DNA of 64,000 nt, taken from assembly GCA_963546395.1 (NCBI GenBank), contig CAUUMS010000003.1:82833-146832 (forward strand), read 5' to 3'. The notes below the pieces were generated by a model that saw only the letters and a program-made list of their open reading frames with translations, searched no databases and had not been told where the DNA came from. The position numbers were made by a program, and so were the translations under genes. This stretch comes from an uncultured Bacteroidia bacterium (lineage in GTDB: Bacteria > Bacteroidota > Bacteroidia > Bacteroidales > CAJPTX01). Of this stretch, positions 11,427-47,612 are shown piece by piece. How positions within the stretch are numbered: position 1 is the first letter of the stretch; the number at the start of each line of letters is the position of its first letter.

Positions 11427-11434
11427 TACCTTTG
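11427..11434 (+). promoter_or_regulatory. -7 promoter box TAccTTTG
   Basis: Exact TAnnTTTG 29 nt upstream of the ATG at 11463. Confidence 0.5.
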
Positions 11435-11462
11435 CCCGGTGTGATGGATAGGGATTTAAGAG

Positions 11463-12413: not shown

Positions 12414-12422
12414 CGAGAGAGT

Positions 12423-15003: not shown

Positions 15004-15031
15004 GATGTACGTGTTGAGAGGAGGTAATACC

Positions 15032-35860: not shown

Positions 35861-36634
35861 ATGCCCACTTCCCTTTTTGAAGACATCATATTCGGCCCAG
35901 TGCGTAGCCGGCGGCTGGGCGTTTCGCTCGGTATCAACTTGTTGCCGCAGCACAACAAGTATTGCAATTTCAACTGCATCTACTGCGAATGTGGCTGGAC
36001 GAGTCGCAAGCAGCTACCCGACCTGCCCCCATTTCAGCTTGTGCACGAGCGGCTTGAGCAGCGACTGAGCACCATGCATCAGCAGGGTGAGCCGTTGGAT
36101 GTCATCACCTTTGCGGGCAATGGCGAGCCTACGATGCACCCGCATTTTGCGGATGTGGTCGATAGTGCTATAACGCTGCGGGACAGATATTACCCAGAGG
36201 CGAAGGTGGTGGTGCTGTCTAACGCTAGCATGCTGACGCACCCGCGGGTTGCGGAGGCCTTGCGACGGGTGGATAAGCCAGTGCTGAAGCTCGACTCGGC
36301 TATCGATAGCACTTTTCAGCTCATCAATGGCCCTCTCATGCCGCTCACGGCGCAGCAGGTTATCGGGCACCTGCTGGATTTTGGGCATGATTTTACCCTG
36401 CAAACTCTCTTCCTGCGGGGACAGTTCGATGGGCAACGCGTAGATAATACCACGGAGTTAGAAGTGGGGGCCTGGCTTGCCGCCGTGGAGAAGATACGCC
36501 CACGCGATGTGATGATTTATACGCTCGACCGTGATACGCCAGCCAGTGGCCTGGTGAAGGTGCCAATGGATGATCTCCAGTCCATTGCGCGACGAGTAGA
36601 GGCCCTAGGTATCCCTACGCAGGTGCGGGGGTAG
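35861..36634 (+). CDS. Radical SAM protein (small housekeeping-type, no SPASM domain)
   Basis: CNFNCIYC (Cx3Cx2C) after GPVRSRRLGVSLGINL. 257 aa from the first ATG. Abuts rpe. Confidence 0.75.
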   Translation: MPTSLFEDIIFGPVRSRRLGVSLGINLLPQHNKYCNFNCIYCECGWTSRKQLPDLPPFQLVHERLEQRLSTMHQQGEPLDVITFAGNGEPTMHPHFADVVDSAITLRDRYYPEAKVVVLSNASMLTHPRVAEALRRVDKPVLKLDSAIDSTFQLINGPLMPLTAQQVIGHLLDFGHDFTLQTLFLRGQFDGQRVDNTTELEVGAWLAAVEKIRPRDVMIYTLDRDTPASGLVKVPMDDLQSIARRVEALGIPTQVRG

Positions 36635-36834
36635 GGGGCTTGCTGCGCTTAGCAGCCAATATTGCCAGGGGTGGGCTGATTTGCGGCTTAGCGCAGTGCG
36701 TGTGCAAAGAGTAGAGCTGACGCACCACGTCCTCGGGCGAATGCGGTGCGGCGCACTCGTAAAGTGCTTGTGGCACTCGGCAGTGAAGACCGGTCTACAA
36801 TCTGTGACGACCGCTACGGTTGCGGTGGGGGCTG

Positions 36835-37608
36835 CTAGAGCAACTTGAGGTGAGTGGCTACTGCAATGGCCTCGGAGATGCTGCTAACGTTAAGTTTTGT
36901 AAAAATATTCTTGCGGTAGTATTTTACGGCATCCTTGGATTTATTGATTTTCAAGGCGATTTCGTTGATCGACAACCCCTGGTGGGCCATGCGAATCATG
37001 GCCAATTCATTCTCGGTCAGAAGAACGTGATCTACAGGCTTCCAGCTTTTGCTCTTCCGTGAGAAGTACCACATTTGTTGGCGATTGCAGGAGCAGATGC
37101 GGGCGGTGCGAGCTTTCCGCGATGGGGCCAATGACACCAGGCAAAGGGCTAGCCAGATGTTGCCATCCGCATCCAATTTCAGGGGGGTAATCTGGTGGTT
37201 GAGCAGGATGTTTACCTTGGGATTATCATCGAAAATGTGGAGGTTGTAGGATAGGGTGTATTTACAGCGATCGGAGATATCAAGGCGCGTGAAGAAGTCG
37301 AGGCCTGCCTTGTTGATCTGCATGAGGAAGTCGAGATCTTCTGCTAGCACATGCTTGTGATAGAAGTTGAACCCCTCCTGCAGCATCGTTTCCACGCTCT
37401 CCCCGCATAGAAAAAGCGGATTGCCGGATACGTGGAGGAAGTTTAGCCGGAAGAAGTCGATGATGTAAATGGACTGGTAGGTGACGCGTTCAAACGCTGA
37501 TGCACACTCGATGTGATGTCGTACCTCAGAGTATGCTTCTTCGGCAACCTGTGGACAAATTCCCGGCGGCAGTAGCGACCGGACGATGTCAGTGAGTCGT
37601 AGATCCAT
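36835..37608 (-). CDS. LuxR/GerE-family transcriptional regulator with an N-terminal PAS-like sensor domain
   Basis: C-terminal HTH LTENELAMIRMAHQGLSINEIALKINKSKDAVKYYRKNIFTKLNV. The gene is AT-rich compared with its neighbours. It is divergent from the peptide operon. Confidence 0.8.
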   Translation of the reverse strand: MDLRLTDIVRSLLPPGICPQVAEEAYSEVRHHIECASAFERVTYQSIYIIDFFRLNFLHVSGNPLFLCGESVETMLQEGFNFYHKHVLAEDLDFLMQINKAGLDFFTRLDISDRCKYTLSYNLHIFDDNPKVNILLNHQITPLKLDADGNIWLALCLVSLAPSRKARTARICSCNRQQMWYFSRKSKSWKPVDHVLLTENELAMIRMAHQGLSINEIALKINKSKDAVKYYRKNIFTKLNVSSISEAIAVATHLKLL

Positions 37609-37627
37609 GGCGTTATTGCTATAGTGG

Positions 37628-37635
37628 CAAATTTA
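37628..37635 (-). promoter_or_regulatory. -7 promoter box (TAaaTTTG on the minus strand) for the LuxR-type gene
   Basis: caaattta on the plus strand, 20 nt upstream of the start at 37608. Confidence 0.4.
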
Positions 37636-37974
37636 ATGGATCCGTCGGAGTTTAAGCGTTGCCAGCGCATGGGATTTGCGTTGCTCGAGGAGGCATGTAT
37701 GTTATGATTGCCTCGTTTGAATGCAAAGTCATGAATTTGCACTAGCCTCCTAGTCGTGTAAACGCTAAGATACCGGGCCTTAAGTGGATTCGCTACGAAT
37801 TGCAAGATCGTTGCCACCTAGTAATAAAATAGGACTTCATTTGATCCCTCTTAGGTGTAGATTGGGGTGATTGTGATTCTCCTTGCGCGAGAGGCCTTGC
37901 GCCCTGTGCTGTGATGCGGAGATGGAGAGTTTCATACTTTCTTGGTAAGCATTTTGAGAGGCAAAGGGCCGTGA

Positions 37975-38012
37975 TTACCCGATGGGGTAAAAGTGGCATT
38001 ATTACCCTTTTG
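37975..38012 (+). promoter_or_regulatory. Candidate operator/promoter of the peptide operon
   Basis: Palindrome TTACCC-gatg-GGGTAA (37975..37990) plus a third TTACCC half-site (38002..38007). The half-site overlaps a near-consensus -7 box TAcccTTTTG (38003..38012). Confidence 0.3.
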
Positions 38013-38296
38013 TGTATTGTGAGCGTTGAGGTGTGTTCCGAAATTTGCAATCGTAAAGGAGATGACGACGGTGCCAATGGGGCGCAAAAGTGGATTTCCT
38101 ATTACAAAATGGCAGGTTGCTGACGAGTGATTTGCTAGGCGTGGGGTGTGGGAGCACGTGATTCTGCACTTTCGCTTTCAGAGGGGAGGCTTACTTCGAA
38201 GGTTCCTTCTGAAAGATGAGGTCGGTAAATCCTCAACGCCAAAAGCCGCAGCGAATGGGTCGCTGTGAGGTGTTTCAATCGTAATTACTACGAGTA

Positions 38297-38500
38297 ATGA
38301 TAGAGAAATTGAATTTTGATGAGCTTCAGCCGTCAGCGTTTGAAGCTATCGTGGGTGGGGCTGATAATGATGCCCAGGTGCAAGGATTTTTCGGTCTGAT
38401 TATCTGCTGTAATGACAAAAAGAAGAAGCCGAAGCCGCCAGATCAAGTGGTGAAGCCAGATGCTGTCAGTGGAAATGGAGGAGATGGTGGTATCCAGTAA
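38297..38500 (+). CDS. RiPP/bacteriocin precursor peptide with a double-glycine leader
   Basis: 67 aa: MIEKLNFDELQPSAFEAIVGG / ADNDAQVQGFFGLIICCNDKKKKPKPPDQVVKPDAVSGNGGDGGIQ. The leader has hydrophobic residues at -4, -7, -12 and -15 and GG at -2/-1. It is the first gene of an operon that encodes a rSAM maturase and a C39-ABC exporter. Confidence 0.75.
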   Translation: MIEKLNFDELQPSAFEAIVGGADNDAQVQGFFGLIICCNDKKKKPKPPDQVVKPDAVSGNGGDGGIQ

Positions 38501-38535
38501 CTTTTAGGATACAAATCATGTCCTAGACAATGAGA

Positions 38536-38580
38536 GGGGGGAAGCTGGACTTCTCCAGTTTCCCCCCATTTTCTTTCATT
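38536..38580 (+). terminator. Hairpin attenuator/terminator between the precursor and maturase genes
   Basis: 14-bp stem ggggggaagctgga/tccagtttcccccc (one G-U pair), loop cttc, then the T-rich attttctttcatttc. Confidence 0.65.
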
Positions 38581-38601
38581 TCAGTCTGAAGGAGGTAGCC
38601 A

Positions 38602-39951
38602 ATGGAGGTGATAAGGTATCAGCTGGCCCCGTATTGGGTTTTGCGGCATGACGAGCACCGGCACGATTGCTATACCCTTTTCGATATCAGAGCTGCTAAG
38701 ATATACACCATTAACCGCTCCATTTTTCGCCTTCTCTCATTCATTGAGGCGAGTGGTAAGCGGCTCGACGAGGTGGTGGACTTCTTTGGGCAGGCAAACG
38801 AGATTGATTACAGCATGGTCTTTAGCAATCTCAACAAGCAGTGGGATGGTCTGGTGCTCAATACGAATGCAGAGGTGAGGGTTGCAGAGCATCCAAGACT
38901 CCAGTTCACTCCTCGGGTGCCGGTGTGCTCCTCGCCTCGGACCGCGGAGATTCAGCTTACCACGCGGTGCAATCTGGAGTGCTTGCACTGCCTCCACTCC
39001 TGTGGGCGCGATAGGCATGACGCGCTGATCTCGGGCCAGAAGTGGGTTAGAATTCTGCGTGAGCTAGAGGCTAATCGGATGCGAATTGTCACCCTTACCG
39101 GGGGTGAGCTCTTTACGCACCCCGACATCGATACGATAATCGAGGCCTTGGGTAAGATGCGGATGCAATTCGTCATCCTCACCAATGCGATGCTCATTAC
39201 CCCCGAGCGGGCCAGGATGCTAGCGCATCCTAATATTCTACTCTCCATCTCCCTGGATGGTAGCACGGAGGAGTCACATGACTTTCTGCGTGGCGCAGGG
39301 GCTTATCGGGTGCTTATGCGCAAGATGGAGCTGCTTGCTAGTTTGGGGGTGGAATGGGTGCTCTCCGTGACGCTGCATGCCCAGAATACCGGGCAGATAG
39401 AGGGTCTTGTGGAGTATGCGCTTGCGAGTAACGTGAAAGCACTGAACTTTACCATCTTGGACGACATAGGAAGGGCGCAGGACAATCGTATTTTGCATTT
39501 GACGAGGGCGCAGCGTCGGGACTGTAAGCAGCGGATACAACGCTTGCAAAAGCAGTATGCGCAGATACTTCCTATTGTTTTGCTTGATCCTGAGGAGGGT
39601 TTTGAATCCTCTGATTCTGGCTCGCCGCATGCGGCTGATGATGAGCCAGTGACGTGTACTGGTGCGATATCGCACATAGCCATTGCCACGGATGGGAGTG
39701 TGTACCCATGCGTGTATGCTTTTGGAGTAGACTCTCTTTTTGCTGGGCGTATGACGGAGCGTACGCTCGGCGAAATCTGGAATACCGATAAGTGGTCGCT
39801 GCTGAGAGGGGGCATTACGATGCAGGATCTGCATCAGTGCAAATCGTGCACCCTACGGAGTAGTTGTCAGACAAAAAGCTGTAGGGTACGTGCGCTGAAG
39901 TATAAGGGCGACCTCTACGCAGCGCCGAAGTGTGTGGTCTTTCCCCATTAA
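38602..39951 (+). CDS. Radical SAM/SPASM peptide maturase with an N-terminal RRE (PqqD-like) domain
   Basis: Cx3Cx2C at C123/C127/C130 (TTRCNLECLHC) and GGE-like TLTGGEL. SPASM cysteines are C352-x12-G-x4-C370, C413-x2-C416-x5-C422-x4-C427 and C444. About 100 aa precede the core. Confidence 0.85.
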   Translation: MEVIRYQLAPYWVLRHDEHRHDCYTLFDIRAAKIYTINRSIFRLLSFIEASGKRLDEVVDFFGQANEIDYSMVFSNLNKQWDGLVLNTNAEVRVAEHPRLQFTPRVPVCSSPRTAEIQLTTRCNLECLHCLHSCGRDRHDALISGQKWVRILRELEANRMRIVTLTGGELFTHPDIDTIIEALGKMRMQFVILTNAMLITPERARMLAHPNILLSISLDGSTEESHDFLRGAGAYRVLMRKMELLASLGVEWVLSVTLHAQNTGQIEGLVEYALASNVKALNFTILDDIGRAQDNRILHLTRAQRRDCKQRIQRLQKQYAQILPIVLLDPEEGFESSDSGSPHAADDEPVTCTGAISHIAIATDGSVYPCVYAFGVDSLFAGRMTERTLGEIWNTDKWSLLRGGITMQDLHQCKSCTLRSSCQTKSCRVRALKYKGDLYAAPKCVVFPH

Positions 39952-39962
39952 AAGTTTAGACG

Positions 39963-42245
39963 ATGAGACATTTTTTACTTCTCTTGACCATAGTCCTCTG
40001 CACGTCTCCCGCCTGGGGACAGCAAGGTATCAATGCGTTGGTGTTGGATCTCGATGGCAAGCCGCTTGAGTATTGCAATGTGGTGGGATACACCAAGGAC
40101 AGCGTCTTTATGCGGGGTACCATAACCGACAGCCTGGGGCGTTTCAACATTTCCAATGTCGACAGCCTCTTTTACCTGCGTTTTAGCAGCTTGGGCTATG
40201 CCACGCAGGATGTGCCTGTGCTGAATTTTCCCGCCCAGGTACGTATGGCCCCAGAGAATATCGCTGTGGATGGTGTTGTGGTGGAGGGGCGTAGGCCTCG
40301 TCTGACGATGGAGCGAGGGAAGCTCAAAATGAATGTTAGGGGAACCATCCTATCGGAGCGTCCCCATGTTGGCAAAGTGCTATCGCAGATACCAGGCCTT
40401 ACGGCAGAGAGTAACGGTGAGGCCTCGCTGATTGGTGGGGGAACTCTCGTTACGTTTATCGATGGCCGAAAGGTGCTAAGCTCTGACGAATTGCAAGCCT
40501 TGGATCCCAAGGACATTGAATCGATAACTCTGGATCGTGCGCCGGGTACACGTTATGGCAGTGGGGTTCGGGCTGTGCTCAATATTCGGACTGTACACCG
40601 ATTCGATCAGATATCCGTTCTCGCAAGGAGTTGGGCCGATTTCAATCATCTGGTCTCTTATGGGGGGAGTGCGCAGGTGGGGTACTACACCAAAAACACC
40701 AAGTTCCTCTTTTACATCTGGCATCGCAACGATAGGGAGTTAAAAACTGAGCTGATGGATGCCAAGAGTGCGCCATTCAAGCAGCTCCTCGTGCGGAGAA
40801 TTGACACGACGCACTACCTAAAGAATTATGCCCGTGTGCAGATGGATGTTCTCCCGAATGAGAAGCTTAGTACAGGGGTGCGGTATAATTTCTCGTGGAA
40901 CAGAGAGACAACATCCGATCTTACCCGGACGCTGTTCAACCCAGGGCATGCCGCTTGGGAAAGGGTTGACGCAACCGGAGATGTGAGGGGTAATTCGCCG
41001 TCGCACCATGTCAGCGGCTACGTGACCTACAAGCCTACCAAGGACTGGGAAATTGAGCTTAATGCCGATGTGTTTGCCAGAGATATGCGCAGGCGACAGC
41101 TTACCCATGAGCGCAGTGCAGCCGTTCATCGGGATATCAACTGGAAGACAGATGCGCACTACCTACTCTGGCAGCTTTCGCCACGTGTGAGCTACAGCTT
41201 CACCAAGGAGCAAGCGCTCGAGGCGGGGGCCGATATCAACCATATCACGGGCGATAGGCAGCAGTATAAGGAGAACCGGATGAGCGTTGATGGGCGTAAT
41301 GGGGAGGCTCTCTATGCTGCGTACACCAATTACACCTATGCGCTGTCCGAGAAATGGAATCTCTCAGCAGGGCTTCGTTATGAGCATGCCGCTAGCCGGC
41401 TCAGCGATGCGCGGGTGCCTGCGAACGATGTTAGTAGAACGTATGACAACCTTTTCTTCTCTGGGAAGGTCTCTGGCCAGATAGGGAATGCCATGCACGT
41501 ATTCGACGTGAGCTCCGGCACCCAGCGCCCAGCGTTGGAGGATCTGAGTAATAACAGCTACTACTCTAGTCGATTCATATTGCAGGAGTCCAACCCCAAG
41601 CTAATACCGGCGAAGATCTATCGGGCCAACTATGCGTTCAATTATGGCCCCATATTCGCCGGGCTAAGCTACCGCTACACTCGTGACCACATCGACCATC
41701 TCATACACCAGAATTCCAATGATCCTGATGGGTATGTATTCGCCAAGGCCAACTTTAAGCACCATCATTCAGGCCAGGCCATGCTGGGAATGCAGATGTC
41801 GTTGGCGAAATGGTACACTATCGATATCTCGGGGCTAGCGCAGCTCGAGCGGATTGATGGAAAGCAGTATGGGCTCGCCCTCAAGGCTCGTCCGCTCTAC
41901 TACGGCAAGATATCACAGACATTCTCGTTCTCGTGGGTTAACTTCGAAATCGAGTATGCCTATCAGAGCCCCCTCACTGCGGGAACATTCGAAGCGCGTG
42001 AGCAGCATACGCTTGAGGCATCTGTTTGGCGATCCTTTTTCAAGGACAGGCTGTATGTATACATCGAGGCATCCAATATACTTGCTGCCAGGGATGTTGC
42101 GTACACTCGTGTTGGAGGGCTCTCCCTACTGCATGACGATTACCGGGATACACGAAAGATCAAGTTGTTCATTCGTTACCGGTTTAACAAAGCGACGAGC
42201 AAGAACCGAACGAGTGCTGCTTCGGAGTCTATAGATCGCCTATAG
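39963..42245 (+). CDS. Outer-membrane beta-barrel protein with an N-terminal CarboxypepD_reg-like domain (TonB-dependent-receptor-like), paralogue 1
   Basis: Signal peptide MRHFLLLLTIVLCTSPAWG/QQ, Carb-reg-like domain (VLDLDGKPLEYCNVVGY...GTITDSLGRFNI), plug-like segment (VLSQIPGL...IESITLDRAPGTRYGS), and a long barrel ending ...LFIRYRF plus a basic tail. 760 aa. Confidence 0.8.
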   Translation: MRHFLLLLTIVLCTSPAWGQQGINALVLDLDGKPLEYCNVVGYTKDSVFMRGTITDSLGRFNISNVDSLFYLRFSSLGYATQDVPVLNFPAQVRMAPENIAVDGVVVEGRRPRLTMERGKLKMNVRGTILSERPHVGKVLSQIPGLTAESNGEASLIGGGTLVTFIDGRKVLSSDELQALDPKDIESITLDRAPGTRYGSGVRAVLNIRTVHRFDQISVLARSWADFNHLVSYGGSAQVGYYTKNTKFLFYIWHRNDRELKTELMDAKSAPFKQLLVRRIDTTHYLKNYARVQMDVLPNEKLSTGVRYNFSWNRETTSDLTRTLFNPGHAAWERVDATGDVRGNSPSHHVSGYVTYKPTKDWEIELNADVFARDMRRRQLTHERSAAVHRDINWKTDAHYLLWQLSPRVSYSFTKEQALEAGADINHITGDRQQYKENRMSVDGRNGEALYAAYTNYTYALSEKWNLSAGLRYEHAASRLSDARVPANDVSRTYDNLFFSGKVSGQIGNAMHVFDVSSGTQRPALEDLSNNSYYSSRFILQESNPKLIPAKIYRANYAFNYGPIFAGLSYRYTRDHIDHLIHQNSNDPDGYVFAKANFKHHHSGQAMLGMQMSLAKWYTIDISGLAQLERIDGKQYGLALKARPLYYGKISQTFSFSWVNFEIEYAYQSPLTAGTFEAREQHTLEASVWRSFFKDRLYVYIEASNILAARDVAYTRVGGLSLLHDDYRDTRKIKLFIRYRFNKATSKNRTSAASESIDRL

Positions 42246-42246
42246 C

Positions 42247-42311
42247 GTGGAGTTCCTCAAGCAGCGTGATACGATAGATTGCGGCCCATAATGTCTGGCT
42301 TCCCGCATTAA
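42247..42311 (+). pseudogene. Duplication scar: 5' relic of the C39-ABC gene fused to a 3' relic of the rSAM gene
   Basis: 42247..42299 matches 44604..44656 at 46 of 53 nt by hand count (VEFLKQRDTIDCGP*) but carries an in-frame TAA. 42300..42311 (ttcccgcattaa) matches the last codons of the rSAM gene (tttccccattaa at 39940..39951). Confidence 0.7.
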
Positions 42312-42322
42312 AAGTTTGAGTA

Positions 42323-44602
42323 ATGAGACGCTGTTTACTTCTCCTAATCATAGTGCTTTGCACCTCTTCTGCGTGGGCTCAGCAAGGCATTAGCGCACGG
42401 GTCATCGATTTCGATGGTAAACCGCTCGAGTACTGCAATGTGGTGGGCTACACCAGGGACAGCGTGTTCGTGCGGGGGACAATAACCGATAGCCTCGGGA
42501 ATTTCAACATAGCCAACGTCGATAGCCTGTTCTACCTGCGCTTTACCAGCCTTGGTTATACCACCCAGGACGTGCCAGTGATGAATTTTCCCGCCCAGGT
42601 GCGCATGGCTGCCGAAAATATTGCTGTGGGCGATGTGGTGGTAGAGGGGCGTAGGCCCAAGCTGGTCATGCAGGGTGGGAAGCTCAGGATGAATGTTAAG
42701 GGGACAATCCTGTCCGAGCGTCCCACCGTTGACAAAGTGCTATCGCAGATACCGGGGCTTACGGCAAATAACGAGGGTGCATCACTGATCGGCGGTGGCA
42801 CCCTCGTTACGCTTATTGATGGGAGGCGAGTTCTTAACGCGAGCGAACTTCAGGCTTTGGATCCCAAGGATATCGAGTCTATAACGATGGATCGTGCTCC
42901 TGGGGCACGTTATGGCAGCGAGGTGAGGGCTGTGCTGAATATTCGCACCGTGCATCGCTTCGATCAGCTATCTGTGCTCGTGAGGGGTAGAGCCGCATTC
43001 AACCACTTGTTCTCGCACTGGGAAAGTGCGCAAGTGGGGTATCACACCAAGAAAGCCAAGTTCCTTTTCTATGCTAGCGGTAACGATAAGAGAGTGCTGG
43101 AGACGCAGCGGTTAGATGCCACAATTGTACCTGCTAAGGAGTTGCGTACAAATCTTGTCGATACGACTGCTTACAGGGGGTACTATACCTTCCTTCAGGT
43201 AGATCTCTTTCCTAGTAAGAAGATCAATGCTGGTGTGTCGTATCACTTCATTATGCGCCTCCTGGGGATGGGTGTTATTAGTCGCCTGCGATTCAATCCA
43301 GGGCATGCTGCTTGGGAGGATGTCATCTCGAGTGGCAGCTTGAAGGACAACTCACCCTCCCACCATGTCAATAGCTACGTAACCTACAAGCCCACCTCAG
43401 CCTGGGAGATAGAGCTTGAGACCGACGTGTTTACCCGGAACATGCATCGGCGCCAGTACACGCACGAGCGTGAGGCCGTGCGTGAGCGGGATGTCAACTT
43501 GCGCACCGATACCCACTATCTTCTCTGGCAGCTTTCGCCACGTGCTAGTTACAGCTTTACCGAGAGCCAGAAGCTCGAGGTTGGTGTTCATGTCAACCGC
43601 ATTACTGGCGATCGGAAGCAATATGTGGCGAATTGGATCAGCTCCGAAGGACGCAATAATGAGGAACTCTATGCGGCTTACACCAACTACAGCTATGCCC
43701 CTTCCGAAAAGTGGAGCCTTAGTGCTGGCCTGCGCTATGAGCGGGCTAATAGCCGTCTCAATGATTTGCGAGTGCTAGGTGCTGATGTAGATCGGACATT
43801 CGACAACCTCTTTTTCTCGGGAAAGATCGCTGGCCAGATCGGAAAAACCACGCACCAGTTCGACGTGAGCTCTGGCACGCAGCGCCCTTTGTTGGAGGAG
43901 CTTAGCAATCACAGCGTTTACATCAACAAGTTCCTGATACAAGAGTCCAACCCAAATCTGATTCCCTCCAAGATTTATCGTGCCAATTACACATTCAATT
44001 ACGGGCCCCTGTTTGCGGGGATAAACTACCAGTACACCCGCAATCACATTGCCGGTTACATGCAGATTAATCCCAAAGATCCCGATGGCTATGTGCTCTC
44101 CAATACCAACTACAAGCACCACCATCGTGGGCAGGTGCTGCTGGGCATGGAGATGTCGCTGGCAAAGTGGTACTCGTTTAGCATCAATGGATTGGGGCAA
44201 ATGGAGCGAATCGATGGCAGGCAGTATGGCCTCTCCATTAAGATGCGCCCGCTCTACTACGGAAAGATCACACACACCTTCACGTTCCCGTGGTTTAACT
44301 TTAGTGTGGAGTACTCTTACCGGAGTGCACATACCATGAATGTCAACGAGACGGGGGAGCAGCACATGCTCGAAGCCTCCGTCTGGAAATCTTTCTTCGA
44401 CGGACGGCTTTACGTGAACATCGTGGGCGAGGATCTTTTGGCAGCTAGAAACGTTACCTACACACGCATTGGAGGCCTTGCCGTCCAAGCCGAGGAATAC
44501 AGTGATACACGGTGCGTTGCCCTGTTTCTGCGATACCGGTTTAATGCGTCCACGAGCAAGAATCGAAAGAGTGCTGCCTCGGAGTCTATAGATCGCCTAT
44601 AG
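42323..44602 (+). CDS. Outer-membrane beta-barrel protein with an N-terminal CarboxypepD_reg-like domain, paralogue 2
   Basis: 759 aa and collinear with paralogue 1. The N-terminal roughly 210 aa and the C-terminal tail (SKNR.SAASESIDRL) are near-identical, while the central barrel/loop regions are much more diverged. Confidence 0.8.
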   Translation: MRRCLLLLIIVLCTSSAWAQQGISARVIDFDGKPLEYCNVVGYTRDSVFVRGTITDSLGNFNIANVDSLFYLRFTSLGYTTQDVPVMNFPAQVRMAAENIAVGDVVVEGRRPKLVMQGGKLRMNVKGTILSERPTVDKVLSQIPGLTANNEGASLIGGGTLVTLIDGRRVLNASELQALDPKDIESITMDRAPGARYGSEVRAVLNIRTVHRFDQLSVLVRGRAAFNHLFSHWESAQVGYHTKKAKFLFYASGNDKRVLETQRLDATIVPAKELRTNLVDTTAYRGYYTFLQVDLFPSKKINAGVSYHFIMRLLGMGVISRLRFNPGHAAWEDVISSGSLKDNSPSHHVNSYVTYKPTSAWEIELETDVFTRNMHRRQYTHEREAVRERDVNLRTDTHYLLWQLSPRASYSFTESQKLEVGVHVNRITGDRKQYVANWISSEGRNNEELYAAYTNYSYAPSEKWSLSAGLRYERANSRLNDLRVLGADVDRTFDNLFFSGKIAGQIGKTTHQFDVSSGTQRPLLEELSNHSVYINKFLIQESNPNLIPSKIYRANYTFNYGPLFAGINYQYTRNHIAGYMQINPKDPDGYVLSNTNYKHHHRGQVLLGMEMSLAKWYSFSINGLGQMERIDGRQYGLSIKMRPLYYGKITHTFTFPWFNFSVEYSYRSAHTMNVNETGEQHMLEASVWKSFFDGRLYVNIVGEDLLAARNVTYTRIGGLAVQAEEYSDTRCVALFLRYRFNASTSKNRKSAASESIDRL

Positions 44603-44603
44603 C

Positions 44604-46805
44604 GTGGAGTTCCTCAAGCAGCGTGATGCGATGGATTGTGGCCCGTCGTGCCTGGCAATGATCGCTGGGCACTATGGGCTGCGTCCTGATCGTGATCATC
44701 TGCGTCGTATCTGTGCCCTCGGCAAAGAGGGCGTATCACTCCTTGGGATCAGCAAGGCGGCTGAGGCCATCGGATTTCGTACTGTGGGCGGGCGTATGGG
44801 GGTAGAGACGCTCACTACGGAGATCCCCCTCCCTTGTATTGTACACTGGAATCAGAATCACTTCGTTGTCGTCTACAAGGTAAAGCGCATACGCCCTGGC
44901 TTGCGCATGATACATGTGGCCGATCCTGCGAAGGGCCTGCTGACCTACACGGAGCAGGAGTTCTGTGAGCATTGGGTTAGCACGCAGGATCACGGCGAAG
45001 GGAAGGGGATAGCCCTTCTCCTTGAACCCTCCGAGGGCTTTTACAGCGGGCAGGATGCTGGTGCAATTGCCAAGAGGGGCTCCCGCCTCGTCTTCCTCTG
45101 GCGATATCTCCGGAGGTACAAGCGATTCTTCTCGCAGCTCATCCTGGGCCTACTGCTGGGGTCGCTCCTTCAGCTCGTGTTCCCATTCCTCACGCAGGCC
45201 ATTGTGGATACAGGCGTGGGAGGGCGCGATCTTAGCTTTGTGTGGCTCGTGCTTTTGGCACAGCTGATGCTTCTTTTCAGTCGCACCGCCATCACATTTA
45301 TCCGCTCCAAGATCCTCCTGCACATCTCCACGCGCATTAACATTTCGCTCGTCTCGGATTTCTTCATCAAGCTCATGAAGCTCCCCATGAAGTTCTTCGA
45401 TACCAAGCTCATGGGCGATCTCTTGCAGCGCATTGAGGATCACCATCGGGTGGAGCAGTTCCTCACCTCTAGTAGCCTTAGCCTGCTTTTCTCCTTTTTC
45501 ACATTCGTAGTCTTTGGGGTAGTGCTAGCGAGCTACAACCTGGGCATCTTCATCGTCTTCCTCCTGGGCACGCTCCTGTATGCTGGCTGGATAGTCCTAT
45601 TCCTGCGCAAGCGTAGGCTACTCGATTATAAGTACTTCGATCAGGCTGGGCGTAACCGTAATGTCACCTACCAGCTCGTTAATGGAATGCAGGAGATCAA
45701 GCTCCAGGGGTGCGAGCAGCGTAAACGTTGGGAGTGGGAGGATGTGCAGGCCGACCTGTTCAAGGTGAATCTCCAGTCGCTCAACCTTAGCCAGGTGCAG
45801 CAGGCTGGGAGCGTTGCCATCAACGAGGTAAAGAATATCCTCACCACCGTGCTTGCCGCCGCGGCGGTCATCCAGGGGCACATGACCCTCGGGATGATGC
45901 TTGCCGTGCAGTACATCATCGGGCAGCTCAATAGCCCTGTGGAGCAGCTCATCCAGTTCATCTACTCCTGGCAGGATGTGAGCATCAGCCTCGACCGTAT
46001 GAGCGAGATCCACACCGAGGCCAATGAGGAGAACAGCGAGCGCATGCGGAGTGGCTACACTGCTGAACCCTCGCTCACAGTGGAGGGCCTCTCGTTCAAA
46101 TACGACCCCTATAGCTCCCGGGACATCCTTGCCGACATCCATCTCACCATCCCTCATGGCCAGGTGACGGCCATCGTTGGGGCTAGTGGCAGCGGAAAAA
46201 CAACGCTCATCAAGCTTTTGCTCGGATTCTACGAGCCGCTGGCTGGTTGCATTCGGGTCGGTGATACGCCCCTCAGTGAGTATAACCTTGCGTGGTGGCG
46301 TGGCCAGTGCGGGGCCGTGATGCAGGATGGCTACCTCTTCTCCGACACTATAGCGCGCAATATCGCCATCTCTGATGATGAGCCAGACATCGAGCGCATA
46401 CGTAACGCAGCGCGCATTGCAAATATCGCTGACTACATCGAGGCCCTGCCGTTGGGGTACAACACGATGATAGGGCAGGATGGGCAGGGCATCAGCCAGG
46501 GGCAACGTCAGCGCATCCTCATCGCCCGTGTTGTCTACAAGAACCCCACGTTTGTCTTTCTCGATGAGGCGACCAATGCTCTCGATGCCCGCAACGAGCG
46601 TAGCATCACCGAGCGACTGGCGGAGTTCTACCGTGGGAAGACGGTAGTGGTGGTTGCGCATCGTCTATCCACCGTTCGTAATGCCGATCAGATCGTGGTC
46701 TTAGATGCAGGTAAGATCGTTGAGGTCGGCACGCATGAAGAGTTGACAGCAAGCGAGGGACAGTACTTCCATCTGGTCAAGAATCAGCTGGAGCTCGGGA
46801 GTTGA
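44604..46805 (+). CDS. Peptidase-C39-domain ABC transporter (PCAT; bacteriocin/RiPP leader-cleaving exporter)
   Basis: C39 catalytic Cys in QRDAMDCGPSCLAM, with His (NQNHFVVVY) and Asp (HVADP). Six-TM ABC membrane domain. Walker A GASGSGKTT, signature ISQGQRQR, Walker B FVFLDEAT. GTG start lies 1 nt after the upstream stop. Confidence 0.9.
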   Translation: MEFLKQRDAMDCGPSCLAMIAGHYGLRPDRDHLRRICALGKEGVSLLGISKAAEAIGFRTVGGRMGVETLTTEIPLPCIVHWNQNHFVVVYKVKRIRPGLRMIHVADPAKGLLTYTEQEFCEHWVSTQDHGEGKGIALLLEPSEGFYSGQDAGAIAKRGSRLVFLWRYLRRYKRFFSQLILGLLLGSLLQLVFPFLTQAIVDTGVGGRDLSFVWLVLLAQLMLLFSRTAITFIRSKILLHISTRINISLVSDFFIKLMKLPMKFFDTKLMGDLLQRIEDHHRVEQFLTSSSLSLLFSFFTFVVFGVVLASYNLGIFIVFLLGTLLYAGWIVLFLRKRRLLDYKYFDQAGRNRNVTYQLVNGMQEIKLQGCEQRKRWEWEDVQADLFKVNLQSLNLSQVQQAGSVAINEVKNILTTVLAAAAVIQGHMTLGMMLAVQYIIGQLNSPVEQLIQFIYSWQDVSISLDRMSEIHTEANEENSERMRSGYTAEPSLTVEGLSFKYDPYSSRDILADIHLTIPHGQVTAIVGASGSGKTTLIKLLLGFYEPLAGCIRVGDTPLSEYNLAWWRGQCGAVMQDGYLFSDTIARNIAISDDEPDIERIRNAARIANIADYIEALPLGYNTMIGQDGQGISQGQRQRILIARVVYKNPTFVFLDEATNALDARNERSITERLAEFYRGKTVVVVAHRLSTVRNADQIVVLDAGKIVEVGTHEELTASEGQYFHLVKNQLELGS

Positions 46806-46806
46806 C

Positions 46807-47292
46807 ATGGAAAAGCAGCAGGGGCAAGACCAGAGCTTCGAGCTCCGTAGTGAGAAAGTCCGAAGCGTTGTGGGGCAGATGCCCCCATCCATTCTCCGGT
46901 ACGGCATAGCCGTTATTGGGGTCGCCTTGCTTTGCCTATTGATAGTGGCCTATTTCCTGCCCTATAAGCAGGTCTACCGAGGAACCCTTACGGTGTATGG
47001 CACTCAATCCGAGGGGGCATTCGACAGTGTGGATATCGCCGTTTTGCTCAAGTTCGAGAATCGGCCCTCAGGGCCCGTGAGTGGTCAGCAGCTTTACCTA
47101 CAGTCTTCCGTGGGGTGCTTTGCTGGGCAGCTCCTTCAGCTCTCCGCCGAGCGTGATACCATCGAGAGGCAAGCTGCCCTCTGCCGATTCAGGGCAACCG
47201 AGATCAGAGCGATAGAAAATCAGACGGTCGACTTCCAGCTCGTGCACTCATCGGGCAATCTCTTGCAGAAGATGCTTGGTAGGGGCATGTGA
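46807..47292 (+). CDS. Truncated HlyD-like membrane-fusion protein (mini-MFP)
   Basis: 161 aa. The N-terminus resembles Bacteroidota HlyD proteins (LRSEKVRSVVGQMPPSILRYGIAVIGVALLCLL, one TM). There is no room for the coiled-coil/lipoyl hairpin. The ATG lies 1 nt after the PCAT stop. Confidence 0.6.
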   Translation: MEKQQGQDQSFELRSEKVRSVVGQMPPSILRYGIAVIGVALLCLLIVAYFLPYKQVYRGTLTVYGTQSEGAFDSVDIAVLLKFENRPSGPVSGQQLYLQSSVGCFAGQLLQLSAERDTIERQAALCRFRATEIRAIENQTVDFQLVHSSGNLLQKMLGRGM

Positions 47293-47547
47293 TTTGCCCA
47301 CTAACGAAGCCCGTATTCCTGTCATTTCCCAGCGTTATCGAGAGGTGTTGTAGCCTCGTGTAAGATTACCATCGTGGCTCTTTCTACTTGGTCGTATAGG
47401 CCGAGGCATTGCGCCCAACAGTAGCCTAGGCGTGTGTAGGCTTCAGCCTTCTAGGGCTCTTGTTGCCACCGAGATCTCACGCCTCACGAGCGCATCTCTC
47501 AGGGTCGATTACCATCATGTGCCAGCTCCAGCAGCGGTCTATATAGA

Positions 47548-47586
47548 GTTTGGGCTGGGCTCGTTTTACACGAGCCCAGCCCAAAC
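47548..47586. terminator. Bidirectional hairpin terminator between the peptide operon and creD
   Basis: Perfect 16-bp stem gtttgggctgggctcg/cgagcccagcccaaac with loop ttttaca. Confidence 0.7.
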
Positions 47587-47612
47587 TGCATGGTCAGGGC
47601 TACCCCCCCTCG

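What the first reader, a model, noticed from the sequence alone, without database searches (positions are those of the whole stretch)
36835..47292. Uncharacterised double-glycine RiPP/bacteriocin locus with built-in outer-membrane components
Seven co-oriented, tightly packed genes follow a divergent LuxR-type regulator. In order they are a 67-aa GG-leader peptide, a hairpin attenuator, an RRE-rSAM-SPASM maturase, two paralogous CarboxypepD_reg-type outer-membrane barrels, a C39-peptidase ABC exporter (PCAT) and a 161-aa HlyD-like protein. Gaps are 11 nt (rSAM to OM1), 1 nt (OM2 to PCAT) and 1 nt (PCAT to mini-MFP), which indicates one operon. The precursor, rSAM/SPASM and PCAT together form the canonical logic of a radical-SAM-modified, leader-cleaved secreted peptide. 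Placing two OM barrels between the maturase and the exporter, paired with a truncated MFP, is not part of any characterised RiPP system I know. From memory, TIGRFAMs/NCBIfam describes a bioinformatically defined GG-Bacteroidales rSAM maturase/precursor pairing with no characterised product. I cannot verify whether this locus belongs to it.
Basis: partly seen in the sequence, partly recalled or inferred. Interest (0 to 1): 0.9.

Follow-up and report, generated by a model that had tools for sequence, protein, structure and literature searches.

The report
CCN-core radical-SAM peptide operon, Bacteroidales
This is a real operon for a small peptide that a radical-SAM enzyme modifies; the peptide family (an invariant Cys-Cys-Asn motif) has not been described, and the operon carries an outer-membrane barrel, exporter and mini-adaptor module that recurs in Bacteroidales and may be how these bacteria move such peptides across the outer membrane.

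Summary
The described genes are all present at the stated coordinates. There are six co-oriented genes plus a hairpin, not seven genes.

Relatives of the radical-SAM/SPASM enzyme are rare: about 10 protein clusters among 5.8 billion, and 6 of 185,579 species genomes. In 13 locus types the enzyme sits next to a small ORF with a double-glycine-type leader and an invariant "CCN" core motif. No curated family matches, and the locus is not the GG-Bacteroidales system.

The two "barrels" have the TonB-dependent-transporter fold: N-terminal extension, TonB-box-like motif, plug and about 22 strands. The 161-aa protein belongs to a genuine ~160-aa family related to short HlyD adaptors and has no alpha-hairpin.

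Barrel, PCAT and mini-adaptor form a module. It accompanies many unrelated GG-leader peptide cassettes in Prevotella-like contigs (at least 36 of 39 evaluable loci). So the architecture is not unique to this locus, but it is uncharacterised.

Two conspecific strains differ only in a cassette covering the core peptide and the rSAM gene. A conserved palindrome pair marks the likely LuxR operator.

Best reading: a new RiPP family exported by a TolC-independent route that uses the barrel. The direction of transport through the barrel is not shown.

The parts
36835..37608 (-). Divergent LuxR/GerE-type regulator, 257 aa. The C-terminal HTH covers residues 197-251; the N-terminal ~190-aa sensor-like domain is of unknown type.
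   Evidence: Pfam GerE 44.7 bits. PDB 3clo, a 258-aa LuxR-type regulator, matches at E 1.3e-8 over residues 111-257. Orthologues with 50-55% identity lie in the same divergent position in L009 and L018. 257-aa ORFs with the same conserved N-terminal motif lie beside other cargo cassettes in L140, L147 and L103.
37975..37990 (.). Palindromic operator-like site A (TTACCCGATGGGGTAA). Probably a binding site of the LuxR-type regulator.
   Evidence: It is the only exact match to TTACCC-N4-GGGTA in the 64-kb window. The same palindrome lies ~265-385 nt upstream of the precursor ATG in every locus that has the 257-aa regulator, and in none of the CCN loci without it.
38002..38016 (.). Operator-like site B (TTACCCTTTTGTGTA, one mismatch to the palindrome), 27 nt after site A.
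   Evidence: In L018, L140, L147, L103 and L009 site B reads AATTACCC-TT(T/C/G)(T/G)-GGGTATTG, and where site A is present it follows it at 38-49 nt.
38297..38500 (+). Precursor peptide, 67 aa. The leader is MIEKLNFDELQPSAFEAIVGG (nt 38297-38359), with hydrophobic residues at -4, -7, -12 and -15. The core is ADNDAQVQGFFGLIICCN followed by a Lys/Pro-rich tail. The invariant C37-C38-N39 is encoded at nt 38405-38413.
   Evidence: ORF. 15 distinct homologous or analogous peptides lie next to family rSAM genes, and all have a GG/AG-type leader and CCN. The ORF is called as a gene in public assemblies (P0400). No NCBIfam or Pfam hit.
38536..38577 (+). Stem-loop (14 bp) plus T-rich tail between precursor and maturase. 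Probably a partial terminator (attenuator) that sets the precursor-to-enzyme transcript ratio.
   Evidence: A stable hairpin in the same position, but with a different sequence, occurs in L001, L009, L018, L006, L011, L017 and L023, with z from -1.8 to -6.4. It is degraded in L014.
38602..39951 (+). Radical-SAM/SPASM peptide maturase, 449 aa. It has CX3CX2C at C123/C127/C130 and seven invariant SPASM cysteines. A conserved ~105-aa N-terminal extension sits where an RRE would be.
   Evidence: Pfam. Family alignment with invariant Cys. Nearest solved relatives are SkfB (1.2e-30), SuiB, PqqE, CteB and anSME. Below all NCBIfam cut-offs. RRE not detected by sequence.
39963..42245 (+). OM1: a TonB-dependent-transporter-fold outer-membrane protein. 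Parts are a signal peptide, a CarboxypepD_reg-like N-terminal extension (22-95), a TonB-box-like VDGVVVEG in a disordered linker (99-109), a plug (114-210) and a barrel of about 22 strands.
   Evidence: Pfam PF14905 130.9 bits. AF2 model with pLDDT 80 and pTM 0.71. Foldseek gives 224 PDB hits at E<=1e-3, led by PhuR (4.8e-20), PirA, HasR, ChuA, Cir, FecA and OprC. The TonB-box-like motif is conserved across barrel families.
42323..44602 (+). OM2: a paralogue of OM1 (67% identity) with the same architecture. Its stop codon is 1 nt from the PCAT start.
   Evidence: It is 99.5% identical in strain L001, where OM1 carries an in-frame stop.
44604..46805 (+). Peptidase-containing ABC transporter (PCAT), 733 aa, with C39 domain, six-helix TMD and NBD. 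The C39 catalytic-type motifs are visible (QRDAMDCGPSC, NHFVVV, VADPA).
   Evidence: Pfam Peptidase_C39 98 bits, ABC_membrane 96.8, ABC_tran 100.7. 73-80% identical to Prevotella PCATs that serve other cargos.
46807..47292 (+). Mini periplasmic adaptor, 161 aa. It has a conserved cytoplasmic ELRSEKVRS-VGQ-P motif, one TM helix (27-50) and a ~110-aa six-stranded beta domain. There is no lipoyl domain and no alpha-hairpin.
   Evidence: AF2 pLDDT 73. Foldseek top hits are weak but mostly MFPs, led by BesA at E 0.011, then SP_1110, MexA, MacA, ZneB and EmrA. 884 representative clusters, mostly 155-168 aa. 205-285-aa relatives that share the N-terminus carry HlyD_3/HlyD_2 above the Pfam cut-off. 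The gene always lies directly after a PCAT.

Best explanation
The locus is a LuxR-controlled operon that makes a ribosomal peptide natural product of a previously undescribed family, and probably exports it.

Proposed sequence of events:
1. The 67-aa precursor is transcribed in excess, because a hairpin after its stop codon terminates part of the transcripts.
2. The radical-SAM/SPASM enzyme binds the leader and modifies the invariant Cys-Cys-Asn segment of the core. A Cys-derived thioether cross-link is the most likely chemistry, by analogy with its nearest relatives.
3. The PCAT cuts after the double glycine and pumps the peptide out of the cytoplasm.
4. The hairpin-less mini-adaptor and the TonB-box-bearing, TonB-dependent-transporter-like barrel(s) then take the peptide across the periplasm and outer membrane. 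They stand in for the usual HlyD-TolC pair, in the way Oar does for PopC in Myxococcus.

What is shown: the gene content, the domain and fold assignments, the co-conservation, the module's recurrence, and the co-variation of peptide and maturase.

What is inferred: the chemistry, the regulation, actual secretion, and above all the outward direction of transport through the barrel. I put that last step alone at about 0.5.
For: Precursor and enzyme are linked.
- All 13 locus types with a family rSAM have an adjacent small ORF with a GG/AG-type leader and a CCN core.
- Two conspecific strains are 96-100% identical at the nucleotide level across the locus, except for one cassette covering the core-peptide codons and the rSAM gene (68-90%; the core-coding part cannot be aligned).
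- The rSAM has CX3CX2C and 7 invariant SPASM Cys. Its nearest solved relatives are peptide cross-linkers: SkfB, SuiB, PqqE and CteB.

The cleavage and export logic is present.
- The PCAT has a C39 domain.
- The leader has the GG pattern.

Barrel, PCAT and mini-adaptor form one unit.
- Stop and start codons are 1 nt apart.
- A barrel follows the rSAM in every Bacteroidales CCN locus with enough DNA.
- Of 39 evaluable PCAT-p161 loci, 34 have a TBDT-like barrel on the same strand within 9 kb upstream. Two more have a PF14905 barrel that my HMM missed, and two are degraded.
- The cargo cassettes in these loci are diverse, and one peptide has no maturase at all.

The adaptor is a reduced MFP.
- An adaptor without a hairpin fits a partner other than TolC.

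There is precedent and an open question.
- A TBDT with the same NTE-plug-barrel architecture is required, together with TonB/ExbBD, for secretion of PopC (PMC6434023).
- How Bacteroidales PCAT substrates cross the outer membrane is unresolved (PMC6671954; PMC10352776).
- PF14905 barrels in Bacteroidetes graspetide loci were already predicted to act in export (PMC8939145).

Regulation.
- A conserved palindrome pair occurs only in loci that have the LuxR-type gene.
Against: - No experiment of any kind was available: no transcript, no peptide mass, no secretion assay.
- TonB-dependent transporters are importers in all but one documented case, and the conserved TonB-box-like motif fits import equally well.
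- Duplicated barrels (window, L003, L023) look more like diversification of a receptor than of a duct.
- One sub-family (L003-5, L020) has two barrels but no PCAT within 10 kb.
- A distant member outside Bacteroidales (L022) has neither barrel nor PCAT.
- The MFP fold match of p161 is weak (best E 0.011, none <=1e-3).
- The RRE is not detectable by sequence.
- No immunity gene is evident, so antibacterial activity is unsupported.
Confidence: 0.6

Rival explanations
1. The biosynthetic part is the same, but the TBDT-like barrels are uptake receptors. The peptide would leave via the PCAT (plus the mini-adaptor and an unlinked exit route) and be taken back into the periplasm by its cognate TonB-dependent receptor. 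It could then act as a self-signal (autoinducer) or as a scavenging 'public good' such as a thiol-based metallophore, as in methanobactin/MbnT or siderophore operons.
For: - The barrels have the canonical importer fold, with closest structural matches to haem, siderophore, copper and PQQ importers.
- The TonB-box-like motif is conserved.
- Biosynthetic operons that embed their own TBDT are the hallmark of metallophores (established knowledge).
- The invariant Cys-Cys could ligate metal.
- Barrels are duplicated and diverge faster than the PCAT: 23-38% identity against 53-80% over the same loci. Each cargo family has its own barrel family. Both would fit ligand specificity.
- A transcription regulator sits next to the operon.
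Against: - No inner-membrane importer, periplasmic binding protein or sigma/anti-sigma pair is present in any of the loci.
- When the core peptide was swapped between strains, OM1, OM2 and LuxR stayed 97-99.5% identical. Neither candidate receptor co-varies with the ligand.
- The reduced, hairpin-less adaptor co-occurs with barrels almost without exception, and import alone does not explain that.
- rSAM/SPASM enzymes of this clade usually consume the Cys thiols (inference).
- The same module serves very different peptides, including an unmodified Thr-rich one.
Confidence: 0.25
2. The barrels are not transport partners of the peptide at all. They would be either a resistant 'replacement' copy of an outer-membrane target that gives self-immunity, as with the receptor-swap loci next to Bacteroidales BSAP toxins (from memory), or ordinary nutrient TBDTs that travel with the mobile module.
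For: - No dedicated immunity gene is visible in the locus.
- One paralogue (OM1) carries an in-frame stop in strain L001/L002, so it is dispensable.
- The Prevotella versions of the module lie beside integrase and mobilisation genes.
- The GC content of the window locus is 51-55%, against 59-61% in the flanks.
Against: - The barrel is tightly coupled to the PCAT (1-nt spacing).
- It keeps its position in at least 36 of 39 module loci and in every Bacteroidales CCN locus, despite only 22-38% sequence identity. That is hard to reconcile with a passenger gene.
- A barrel is present even for cargo cassettes of entirely different sequence.
Confidence: 0.08
3. The product is not a secreted peptide but a small cofactor-like molecule cut out of the CCN segment, as PQQ or mycofactocin are cut out of their precursors. 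The variable N- and C-terminal core parts would be discarded.
For: - Mycofactocin MftC and PqqE are among the best NCBIfam hits for the rSAM (112 and 102 bits), and PqqE is among the best PDB hits.
- Only CCN is invariant.
- In several precursors CCN lies 0-2 residues from the C-terminus (L021, L011, L022, L140), while others carry long, unconserved tails.
Against: - No additional tailoring enzymes or peptidases of the kind such pathways need are present in the locus.
- All scores are far below the family cut-offs.
- The GG leader, the PCAT and the hydrophobic FGL-x-x stretch before CCN, which is conserved in many members, all fit a peptide product.
Confidence: 0.05

Closest known systems
Radical-SAM/SPASM thioether RiPPs (sactipeptides and ranthipeptides: SkfB/SkfA, CteB/CteA, PapB, NxxcB)
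   Same: An rSAM enzyme with CX3CX2C and a 7-Cys SPASM domain sits next to a short Cys-containing precursor. SkfB and CteB are among the nearest solved relatives. Asn is a known thioether acceptor in ranthipeptides (PMC8939145).
   Different: The enzyme is below every curated family cut-off. The CCN motif with adjacent donor and acceptor residues is not one of the described motifs. The product chemistry is unknown. The host is a diderm and the operon carries its own outer-membrane component.
NCBIfam/TIGRFAM GG-Bacteroidales system (rSAM TIGR04148, precursor TIGR04149)
   Same: A Bacteroidales rSAM maturase paired with a GG-leader precursor, defined bioinformatically, with no known product.
   Different: The rSAM has no hit near the cut-off: TIGR04148 is not among the 25 best hits, the best of which scores 123 bits. 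The precursor has no NCBIfam hit at E<=10. It is therefore a different family.
Class II microcin / colicin V type I secretion (CvaB PCAT, CvaA MFP, TolC)
   Same: The GG leader is cleaved by a C39-ABC exporter, and a single-pass membrane adaptor is encoded directly after the PCAT.
   Different: The adaptor is only 161 aa and has no lipoyl or alpha-hairpin domains. The co-encoded outer-membrane protein is a plugged TBDT-fold barrel, not a TolC-type channel.
Oar-dependent secretion of PopC in Myxococcus xanthus
   Same: The outer-membrane protein has the same architecture: a CarboxypepD_reg N-terminal extension, a TonB box, a plug and a barrel. It works outward, with TonB/ExbBD (PMC6434023).
   Different: The cargo there is a 50-kDa protease that reaches the periplasm by another route, not a PCAT substrate. 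No adaptor is known there. No experimental link exists here.
Bacteroidales RiPP clusters with PCAT and OMP but 'no MFP' (BGC6-9 of PMC10352776), and Bacteroidetes graspetide loci with PF14905 barrels (PMC8939145)
   Same: Both have the same recurring layout, noted in silico. The authors asked whether a distinct transport mechanism is at work or the MFP had simply been missed, and predicted an export role for the barrels.
   Different: The maturases differ (YcaO, LanM, ATP-grasp) and so do the precursors. The ~160-aa adaptor family and the CCN/rSAM family were not described in the passages I read.
Bacteroidetocin loci (class IIf bacteriocins)
   Same: Bacteroidales GG-leader, Cys-containing peptides with a dedicated PCAT. 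The Prevotella module also occurs with a C39+VKOR thiol-oxidoreductase cassette.
   Different: Bacteroidetocin regions have a 5-TM protein and a thiol oxidoreductase, with no rSAM and no barrel. How those peptides cross the outer membrane is unknown (PMC6671954).

Membership tests
GG-Bacteroidales rSAM/precursor system (TIGR04148/TIGR04149) | Maturase scores above the curated cut-off of the family HMM | tested here: not met
   NCBIfam scan. The best hit is ScmE at 123 bits (cut-off 400). TIGR04148 is not among the 25 best, so it scores below 58 bits.
GG-Bacteroidales rSAM/precursor system (TIGR04148/TIGR04149) | Precursor matches the family precursor HMM | tested here: not met
   No NCBIfam or Pfam hit for the 67-aa peptide, even at E<=10.
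Radical-SAM/SPASM peptide maturases | CX3CX2C cluster motif and Radical_SAM domain | tested here: met
   C123-x3-C127-x2-C130 is invariant in 11 family members. PF04055 68.5 bits.
Radical-SAM/SPASM peptide maturases | SPASM domain with about 7 Cys for two auxiliary clusters | tested here: met
   PF13186 37.8 bits. C352, C370, C413, C416, C422, C427 and C444 are invariant.
Radical-SAM/SPASM peptide maturases | N-terminal RiPP recognition element (PqqD-like wHTH) | tested here: inconclusive
   A ~105-aa extension has conserved W12/L14/R15/L26. There is no PqqD Pfam hit in any of the 11 members at E<=1, and no PDB hit for the domain profile (best E 0.33, unrelated proteins).
Sactipeptide/ranthipeptide | Cys-to-carbon thioether in the mature peptide | not testable with these tools
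   This needs LC-MS/MS or NMR of the modified peptide. Only the invariant Cys-Cys-Asn is seen.
Peptidase-containing ABC transporter (PCAT) | N-terminal C39 peptidase with catalytic Cys/His, plus ABC TMD and NBD | tested here: met
   PF03412 98 bits, PF00664 96.8, PF00005 100.7. The DCGPSC and NHFVV motifs are visible in the translation. The protein is below the NCBIfam equivalog cut-offs (TIGR03796 452 against 853).
Double-glycine leader peptides | GG (or GA/GS/AG) at -2/-1 with hydrophobic residues at -4, -7, -12 and -15 | tested here: met
   In the leader ...F(-15)DEL(-12)QPSAF(-7)EAI(-4)VGG. The equivalent pattern is present in 12 other locus types.
TonB-dependent transporter | Plug domain inside a 22-stranded beta-barrel | tested here: met
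   AF2 model with pLDDT 80. Foldseek gives 224 PDB hits at E<=1e-3, and all 50 matches shown are TBDTs, with the best at 4.8e-20. Pfam TonB_dep_Rec_b-barrel scores 27.0 bits, exactly at the cut-off, for OM1. Plug is below the cut-off.
TonB-dependent transporter | Functional TonB box and TonB-dependent import of a ligand | not testable with these tools
   A conserved (L)xE/D-V-V-V-like motif lies in the disordered linker before the plug in all barrel families. Function and direction are untested.
HlyD/membrane-fusion (periplasmic adaptor) proteins | N-terminal TM anchor followed by a beta-barrel/membrane-proximal domain | tested here: inconclusive
   TM helix at 27-50 plus a six-stranded beta domain. 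The Foldseek top hits are mostly MFPs but weak (BesA E 0.011, none <=1e-3). Longer relatives reach HlyD_3/HlyD_2 above the cut-off.
HlyD/membrane-fusion (periplasmic adaptor) proteins | Lipoyl domain and alpha-helical hairpin that reaches the outer-membrane factor | tested here: not met
   The protein is 161 aa. The AF2 model has no long helices after the TM helix. There are no Pfam HlyD hits. The family length mode is 155-168 aa, so this is not a truncation.
Canonical type I secretion system | TolC-type outer-membrane factor as the exit duct | tested here: not met
   No locus gene has an OEP/TolC domain. The only outer-membrane proteins encoded are TBDT-fold barrels. A TolC encoded elsewhere cannot be excluded.
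Metallophore operons with cognate TBDT (for example methanobactin) | Dedicated uptake chain (TBDT plus periplasmic binding protein or inner-membrane importer) and metal-binding chemistry | tested here: not met
   Only the TBDT is present. None of the loci examined has a binding protein, importer or MbnBC-type enzyme. Metal binding is untestable here.

The most novel reading that the evidence does not exclude
The TBDT-like barrel, the PCAT and the ~160-aa hairpin-less adaptor together form a previously unrecognised peptide secretion apparatus of Bacteroidales. It would not use TolC and would be powered by TonB. It would act as a general two-membrane export route for GG-leader peptides, with a cargo-matched barrel. 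The window locus would use it for a new RiPP class whose hallmark is a radical-SAM-modified Cys-Cys-Asn motif.
Probability: 0.4. Interest if true: 0.85.

Novelty: new variant of a known kind. Interest (0 to 1): 0.66.

Why it matters
First, it defines a rare, host-associated RiPP family with a sharp and testable signature: an invariant CCN motif next to a dedicated rSAM/SPASM enzyme. One member is in a cultured strain, Dysgonomonas termitidis CCUG 66188. Naturally swapped cassettes of peptide plus enzyme point to diversifying selection.

Second, it bears on an acknowledged gap, namely how Bacteroidales move PCAT-processed peptides across the outer membrane. The authors of the bacteroidetocin work and of a Bacteroidales RiPP survey both left this open. 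The nearly obligatory trio of barrel, PCAT and mini-adaptor, found with many unrelated cargos in oral and gut Prevotella-like genomes, gives a concrete set of three genes to delete and test. If the barrels do export, that would extend outward transport by TonB-dependent-transporter-like proteins from the single Oar/PopC case to a whole class of peptide systems.

Tried and rejected
- Membership in curated families. The NCBIfam scan puts the rSAM, the PCAT and the precursor below all cut-offs, or gives no hit. I rejected GG-Bacteroidales membership.
- RRE detection. A Pfam scan of 11 family members at E<=1 and a PDB profile search with the N-terminal 110 aa gave nothing meaningful.
- Sequence search of OM1 against the PDB gave no hit. 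The fold search was needed instead.
- p161 against the PDB by sequence gave only noise.
- I looked for full-length (~400 aa) HlyD proteins among p161 relatives. There are none in the best 150 representatives and none in the fetched loci. Only 205-285-aa short HlyD-domain relatives turned up.
- Organism identity. The window holds no rRNA, only tRNA-Gln. Its exact proteins lie on an unnamed NCBI contig of 157,061 bp. Two contig look-ups returned 'not on record'. The species-representative scan found no close (>55%) copy. The host remains an unidentified Bacteroidales with ~60% GC.
- Literature. Eight full-text searches found no description of a CCN-core family, or of a TBDT/PCAT/mini-MFP apparatus, beyond the two in-silico notes cited. 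Two large RiPP surveys have nothing relevant.
- An early impression that the barrel is specific to the CCN rSAM (0 of 74 loci with distant rSAMs had one) had to be corrected. Other rSAM families in Prevotella-like contigs also carry the module.
- Sigma-70 promoter scan: no more sites than expected by chance (11 found against 8.9 expected), and the scan is unsuited to Bacteroidota. It was not used.

Full report
**1. What is in the window**

The ORF list confirms every gene at the stated coordinates:
- a divergent 257-aa regulator (36835-37608, minus strand)
- a 67-aa ORF (38297-38500)
- a 449-aa enzyme (38602-39951)
- two 760/759-aa proteins (39963-42245 and 42323-44602)
- a 733-aa transporter (44604-46805)
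- a 161-aa protein (46807-47292)

That makes six co-oriented genes, not seven. The intergenic gaps of 11, 1 and 1 nt are correct. OM1 to OM2 is 77 nt.

The 101-nt spacer after the small ORF holds a 14-bp G+C-rich stem followed by ATTTTCTTTC. It folds far better than shuffled sequence (-43.1 kcal/mol, z = -4.8).

Pfam gives GerE, Radical_SAM plus SPASM, OMP_b-brl_3 (131 and 127 bits) with sub-threshold CarboxypepD_reg and Plug, and Peptidase_C39 plus ABC_membrane plus ABC_tran. The small ORF and the 161-aa protein hit nothing, even at E<=10.

The locus has 51-55% G+C against 59-61% in the flanks.

**2. The small ORF is a real precursor, and the enzyme family is rare**

Among 5.8 billion protein clusters, the rSAM has only about ten full-length relatives with E<1e-65 (31-95% identity). 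Among 185,579 species-representative genomes, only six carry one:
- an uncultured Prevotella
- a Porphyromonas
- an oral Bacteroidia MAG
- Dysgonomonas termitidis CCUG 66188
- Ca. Amulumruptor caecigallinarius
- one unclassified MAG

I fetched the neighbourhoods and scanned them for small ORFs. Every locus has a 48-69-aa ORF next to the rSAM. Each has a double-glycine-type leader and a core that always contains Cys-Cys-Asn:
- window: ...GFFGLIICCNDKKKK...
- L001: ...GSSNCCNVVV...
- L003: ...VFGLIICCNEVG...
- L006: ...GVNNCCNQSG...
- L009: ...CFGLVVCCNDTT...
- L011: ...FGLGVCCNLN (end)
- L017: ...WSHCCNVKM...
- Dysgonomonas: three tandem copies ending ...GLNVCCNF, ...GLNVCCNL and ...GISACCNPT
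- L022: ...GVVVCCNAE
- L023: ...GAYNCCNTTQ...
- L140, a more distant member (rSAM 263 bits)...GSTDCCNSW

That is fifteen distinct peptides from thirteen locus types, sharing a tripeptide that would turn up by chance in well under 1% of such peptides. The tails after CCN are variable or absent.

**3. The enzyme**

The family alignment shows an invariant CX3CX2C (C123/C127/C130) and seven invariant SPASM cysteines. The nearest solved relatives by profile are SkfB (1.2e-30), SuiB, PqqE, CteB and anSME.

All NCBIfam hits are far below their cut-offs. The best is ScmE at 123 bits against 400. The GG-Bacteroidales model is not among the 25 best. The locus is therefore not a member of that system, nor of any curated maturase family.

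A conserved ~105-aa N-terminal extension sits where an RRE would be. I could not confirm an RRE by sequence.

**4. Peptide and maturase co-vary**

Locus L001 comes from a conspecific strain. Its flanks are 98-100% identical at the nucleotide level. LuxR is 98%, OM1 97%, OM2 99.5% and PCAT 99.6% identical at the protein level.

Identity collapses only between window 38363 and about 39950:
- the core-peptide codons cannot be aligned
- the rSAM gene is 68-90% identical per 200 nt, and 78% at the protein level
- the leader is unchanged

This natural cassette swap is direct evidence that the core and the rSAM work together, while the leader answers to the unchanged PCAT. It also shows that neither LuxR nor the barrels track the core sequence.

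**5. The barrels are TonB-dependent-transporter-fold proteins**

The AlphaFold2 model of OM1 (pLDDT 80, pTM 0.71) shows:
- a signal peptide
- a beta-sandwich N-terminal extension (22-95)
- a disordered linker (99-109) containing VDGVVVEG
- a plug (114-210)
- a barrel of about 22 strands

Foldseek finds 224 PDB matches at E<=1e-3. All 50 matches shown are TBDTs: PhuR (4.8e-20), PirA, HasR, ChuA, Cir, FecA, FyuA, OprC, XusA and PqqU.

The linker motif, a Bacteroidota-style TonB box (L-x-E/D-V-V-V), is conserved in all barrel families that I aligned. The domain architecture is that of Oar, the Myxococcus TBDT needed for outward transport of PopC (PMC6434023).

**6. The 161-aa protein is a reduced periplasmic adaptor, not a truncated gene**

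It has 558 relatives at E<=1e-3 in the 90%-identity clusters. Most are ~65% identical 'hypothetical proteins' of oral Prevotella. A profile search of 1.84 billion representatives finds 884 clusters, with lengths mostly 155-168 aa.

The AF2 model (pLDDT 73) has a TM helix (27-50) and a six-stranded beta domain, with no helical hairpin. The Foldseek hits are weak, with none at E<=1e-3, but periplasmic adaptors dominate them. The list is led by BesA (E 0.011), which from memory is itself a hairpin-less MFP, followed by SP_1110, MexA, MacA, ZneB and EmrA.

A 205-285-aa subgroup shares the cytoplasmic ELRSEKVRS motif and the TM segment. It includes the 229-aa protein after the Dysgonomonas PCAT. 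Several of its members reach the Pfam HlyD_3 or HlyD_2 cut-offs. The protein fails the family's defining lipoyl and hairpin features.

**7. Barrel, PCAT and mini-adaptor form a general module**

In Prevotella sp. C561 and related contigs, the same PCAT (73% identical) and adaptor follow an unrelated 864-aa CarboxypepD_reg barrel (no BLAST similarity to OM1). They serve a different cassette: a 69-aa GG peptide, a C39+VKOR protein and a Porph_ging protein. This lies next to integrase and mobilisation genes.

A metagenome scan with the adaptor profile returned 80 loci. Of the 39 with enough upstream DNA:
- 34 have a TBDT-like barrel on the same strand within 9 kb upstream
- 2 more have a PF14905 barrel that my HMM missed
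- 2 are visibly degraded

The cassettes in front of the barrel are very diverse:
- Cys-rich peptides with other rSAM families
- a DC[NT]CGS[GA]NSN repeat peptide
- a CGCGCG peptide
- a Thr-rich peptide with no enzyme at all

Across CCN loci the PCAT is much better conserved (53-80%) than the barrel (22-38%). The barrel is therefore the cargo-matched part.

Two publications had noticed pieces of this. PF14905/SusC-like barrels are among the recurrent families in Bacteroidetes graspetide loci and were predicted to export (PMC8939145). Bacteroidales RiPP clusters BGC6-9 have a PCAT and an OMP but 'no MFP', which prompted the question of a distinct mechanism (PMC10352776). The bacteroidetocin study left outer-membrane passage open (PMC6671954).

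**8. Regulation**

The regulator resembles a 258-aa Bacteroidales-type LuxR protein of known structure (3clo).

Every locus that has this regulator, whatever its cargo, has the TTACCC-N4-GGGTAT palindrome (site B) ~245-345 nt upstream of the precursor ATG, and most also have a second one, TTACCC-N4-GGGT(A/G)A (site A), 27-49 nt before it. Several loci have a second pair next to the regulator gene. CCN loci without the regulator lack the palindromes.

In the window the sites are at 37975-37990 (an exact palindrome) and 38002-38016 (one mismatch). The pattern with up to one mismatch occurs four times in 64 kb. Three of those matches are these two sites, and only 0.5 matches are expected by chance.

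A hairpin directly after the precursor stop codon recurs in most CCN loci, with a different sequence each time. This fits a conserved partial terminator.

**9. Interpretation**

Shown:
- a co-conserved precursor and maturase pair of a new family
- an intact GG-leader and PCAT logic
- TBDT-fold barrels and a reduced adaptor, in a recurrent and tightly coupled module
- a conserved operator candidate

Inferred:
- the chemistry, for which a Cys-derived thioether is most likely
- operon-level attenuation
- secretion
- the role of the barrel

I favour export, at about 0.5 for that step, for three reasons. A hairpin-less adaptor is almost always paired with a barrel. The module serves very different peptides. 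And the barrels did not change when the core peptide was swapped.

The importer reading (a signal or metallophore receptor) stays serious, at about 0.25. It rests on the fold, the TonB box, the barrel duplications and the fast evolution of the barrels. No uptake partners are encoded. An immunity or passenger role, and a cofactor-like product, are minor alternatives.

**10. Verdict**

- there are six genes, not seven
- the RRE is unverified
- the barrels are TBDT-like
- the architecture is not unique to this locus, and had been noticed in silico

The locus is a new variant of a known kind: an rSAM/SPASM GG-leader RiPP. It has an undescribed precursor signature and an uncharacterised, widespread envelope module, and that module makes an open question about Bacteroidales peptide export directly testable.

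Noticed in passing
window 37975-37990 and 38002-38016; also L009 2013, L018 8672/8721 and 9444/9482, L140 3448/3497, L147 1980/2029 and 2750/2788, L103 2703/2752 and 3515: A conserved pair of TTACCC-N4-GGGTA palindromes occurs only in loci that carry the divergent 257-aa LuxR-type regulator, whatever the peptide cargo. Some loci have a second pair next to the regulator gene, which suggests autoregulation.
   Followed up: partly
window 38363-39950 compared with L001 9820-11350: Two conspecific strains (flanks 98-100% identical) differ by a swapped cassette of core-peptide codons plus rSAM gene. The leader, LuxR, barrels and PCAT are unchanged. P0002 looks like a mosaic of the two rSAM alleles.
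   Followed up: partly
L001 11362-13641 and L002 2542-4821: The OM1 orthologue carries an in-frame stop: it is called as 635 aa, while tblastn aligns 96.7% identity over all 760 aa. This is seen in two independent assemblies. OM2 is intact, so one paralogue seems dispensable. A 209-kb contig also holds fragmented rSAM and OM2 copies.
   Followed up: no
L003-L005 13868-14449; L020: A ParE/YoeB-type toxin gene with a putative antitoxin gene is inserted on the opposite strand between the two barrel genes of an oral Bacteroidia CCN locus. That locus has no PCAT within 10 kb.
   Followed up: no
L098-L101 (Prevotella sp. C561 and relatives): A different peptide system uses the same PCAT and 160-aa adaptor. 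It consists of a 69-aa GG-leader two-Cys peptide, a 263-aa protein, a C39+VKOR fusion (497 aa), a Porph_ging/GLPGLI protein and an 864-aa CarboxypepD_reg barrel. It is directly followed by MobC_2, DUF3408, HTH_17 and two integrase genes, so it is on or beside a mobile element.
   Followed up: partly
L110 743-1015, L126 840-1052, L103 3793-3969, L133 3812-3985, L147 3053-3238, L116 5116-5292, L118 3638-3829: Further uncharacterised GG-leader precursors lie in front of barrel-PCAT-adaptor modules. Examples are a DC[NT]CGS[GA]NSN repeat peptide, ...HACGCGCGCAGG..., ...GGLGCDCGC, and a Thr-rich peptide with no maturase. Several have their own rSAM/SPASM families.
   Followed up: no
L021 (Dysgonomonas termitidis CCUG 66188) 3554-16606: This cultured strain has three tandem CCN precursors, one rSAM, one barrel and two PCAT-plus-short-adaptor pairs (183 and 229 aa), one of them on the opposite strand. 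It is the obvious experimental entry point.
   Followed up: partly
L022 3413-5047: An unclassified MAG has gene content that does not look like Bacteroidales. It carries a family rSAM (346 bits) followed by a 68-aa peptide with a long helical leader, ending ...GMGVVVCCNAE, but no barrel and no PCAT. So the rSAM/CCN pair exists without the envelope module.
   Followed up: no
L100/L119 and L175: These are degraded copies of the module in large Prevotella-like contigs: an IS insertion, a barrel fragment, and a PCAT split into 2-3 ORFs. L100 shares the TetR and KAS-III genes found upstream of the intact CCN locus L015.
   Followed up: no
window 38570-38594: A second predicted stem, just before the rSAM start, pairs the GAAGGAGG stretch with upstream CUUUCAUUUC. 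It might limit translation of the maturase, but it was not tested across loci.
   Followed up: no
window 36000-48000 compared with the flanks: G+C falls to 51-55% across the locus from 59-61% on either side. No integrase or tRNA gene is adjacent. The neighbours are housekeeping-type genes (RecX, Rpe and an rSAM upstream; CreD, DUF6272 and M49 peptidase downstream). This suggests an old horizontal acquisition.
   Followed up: no
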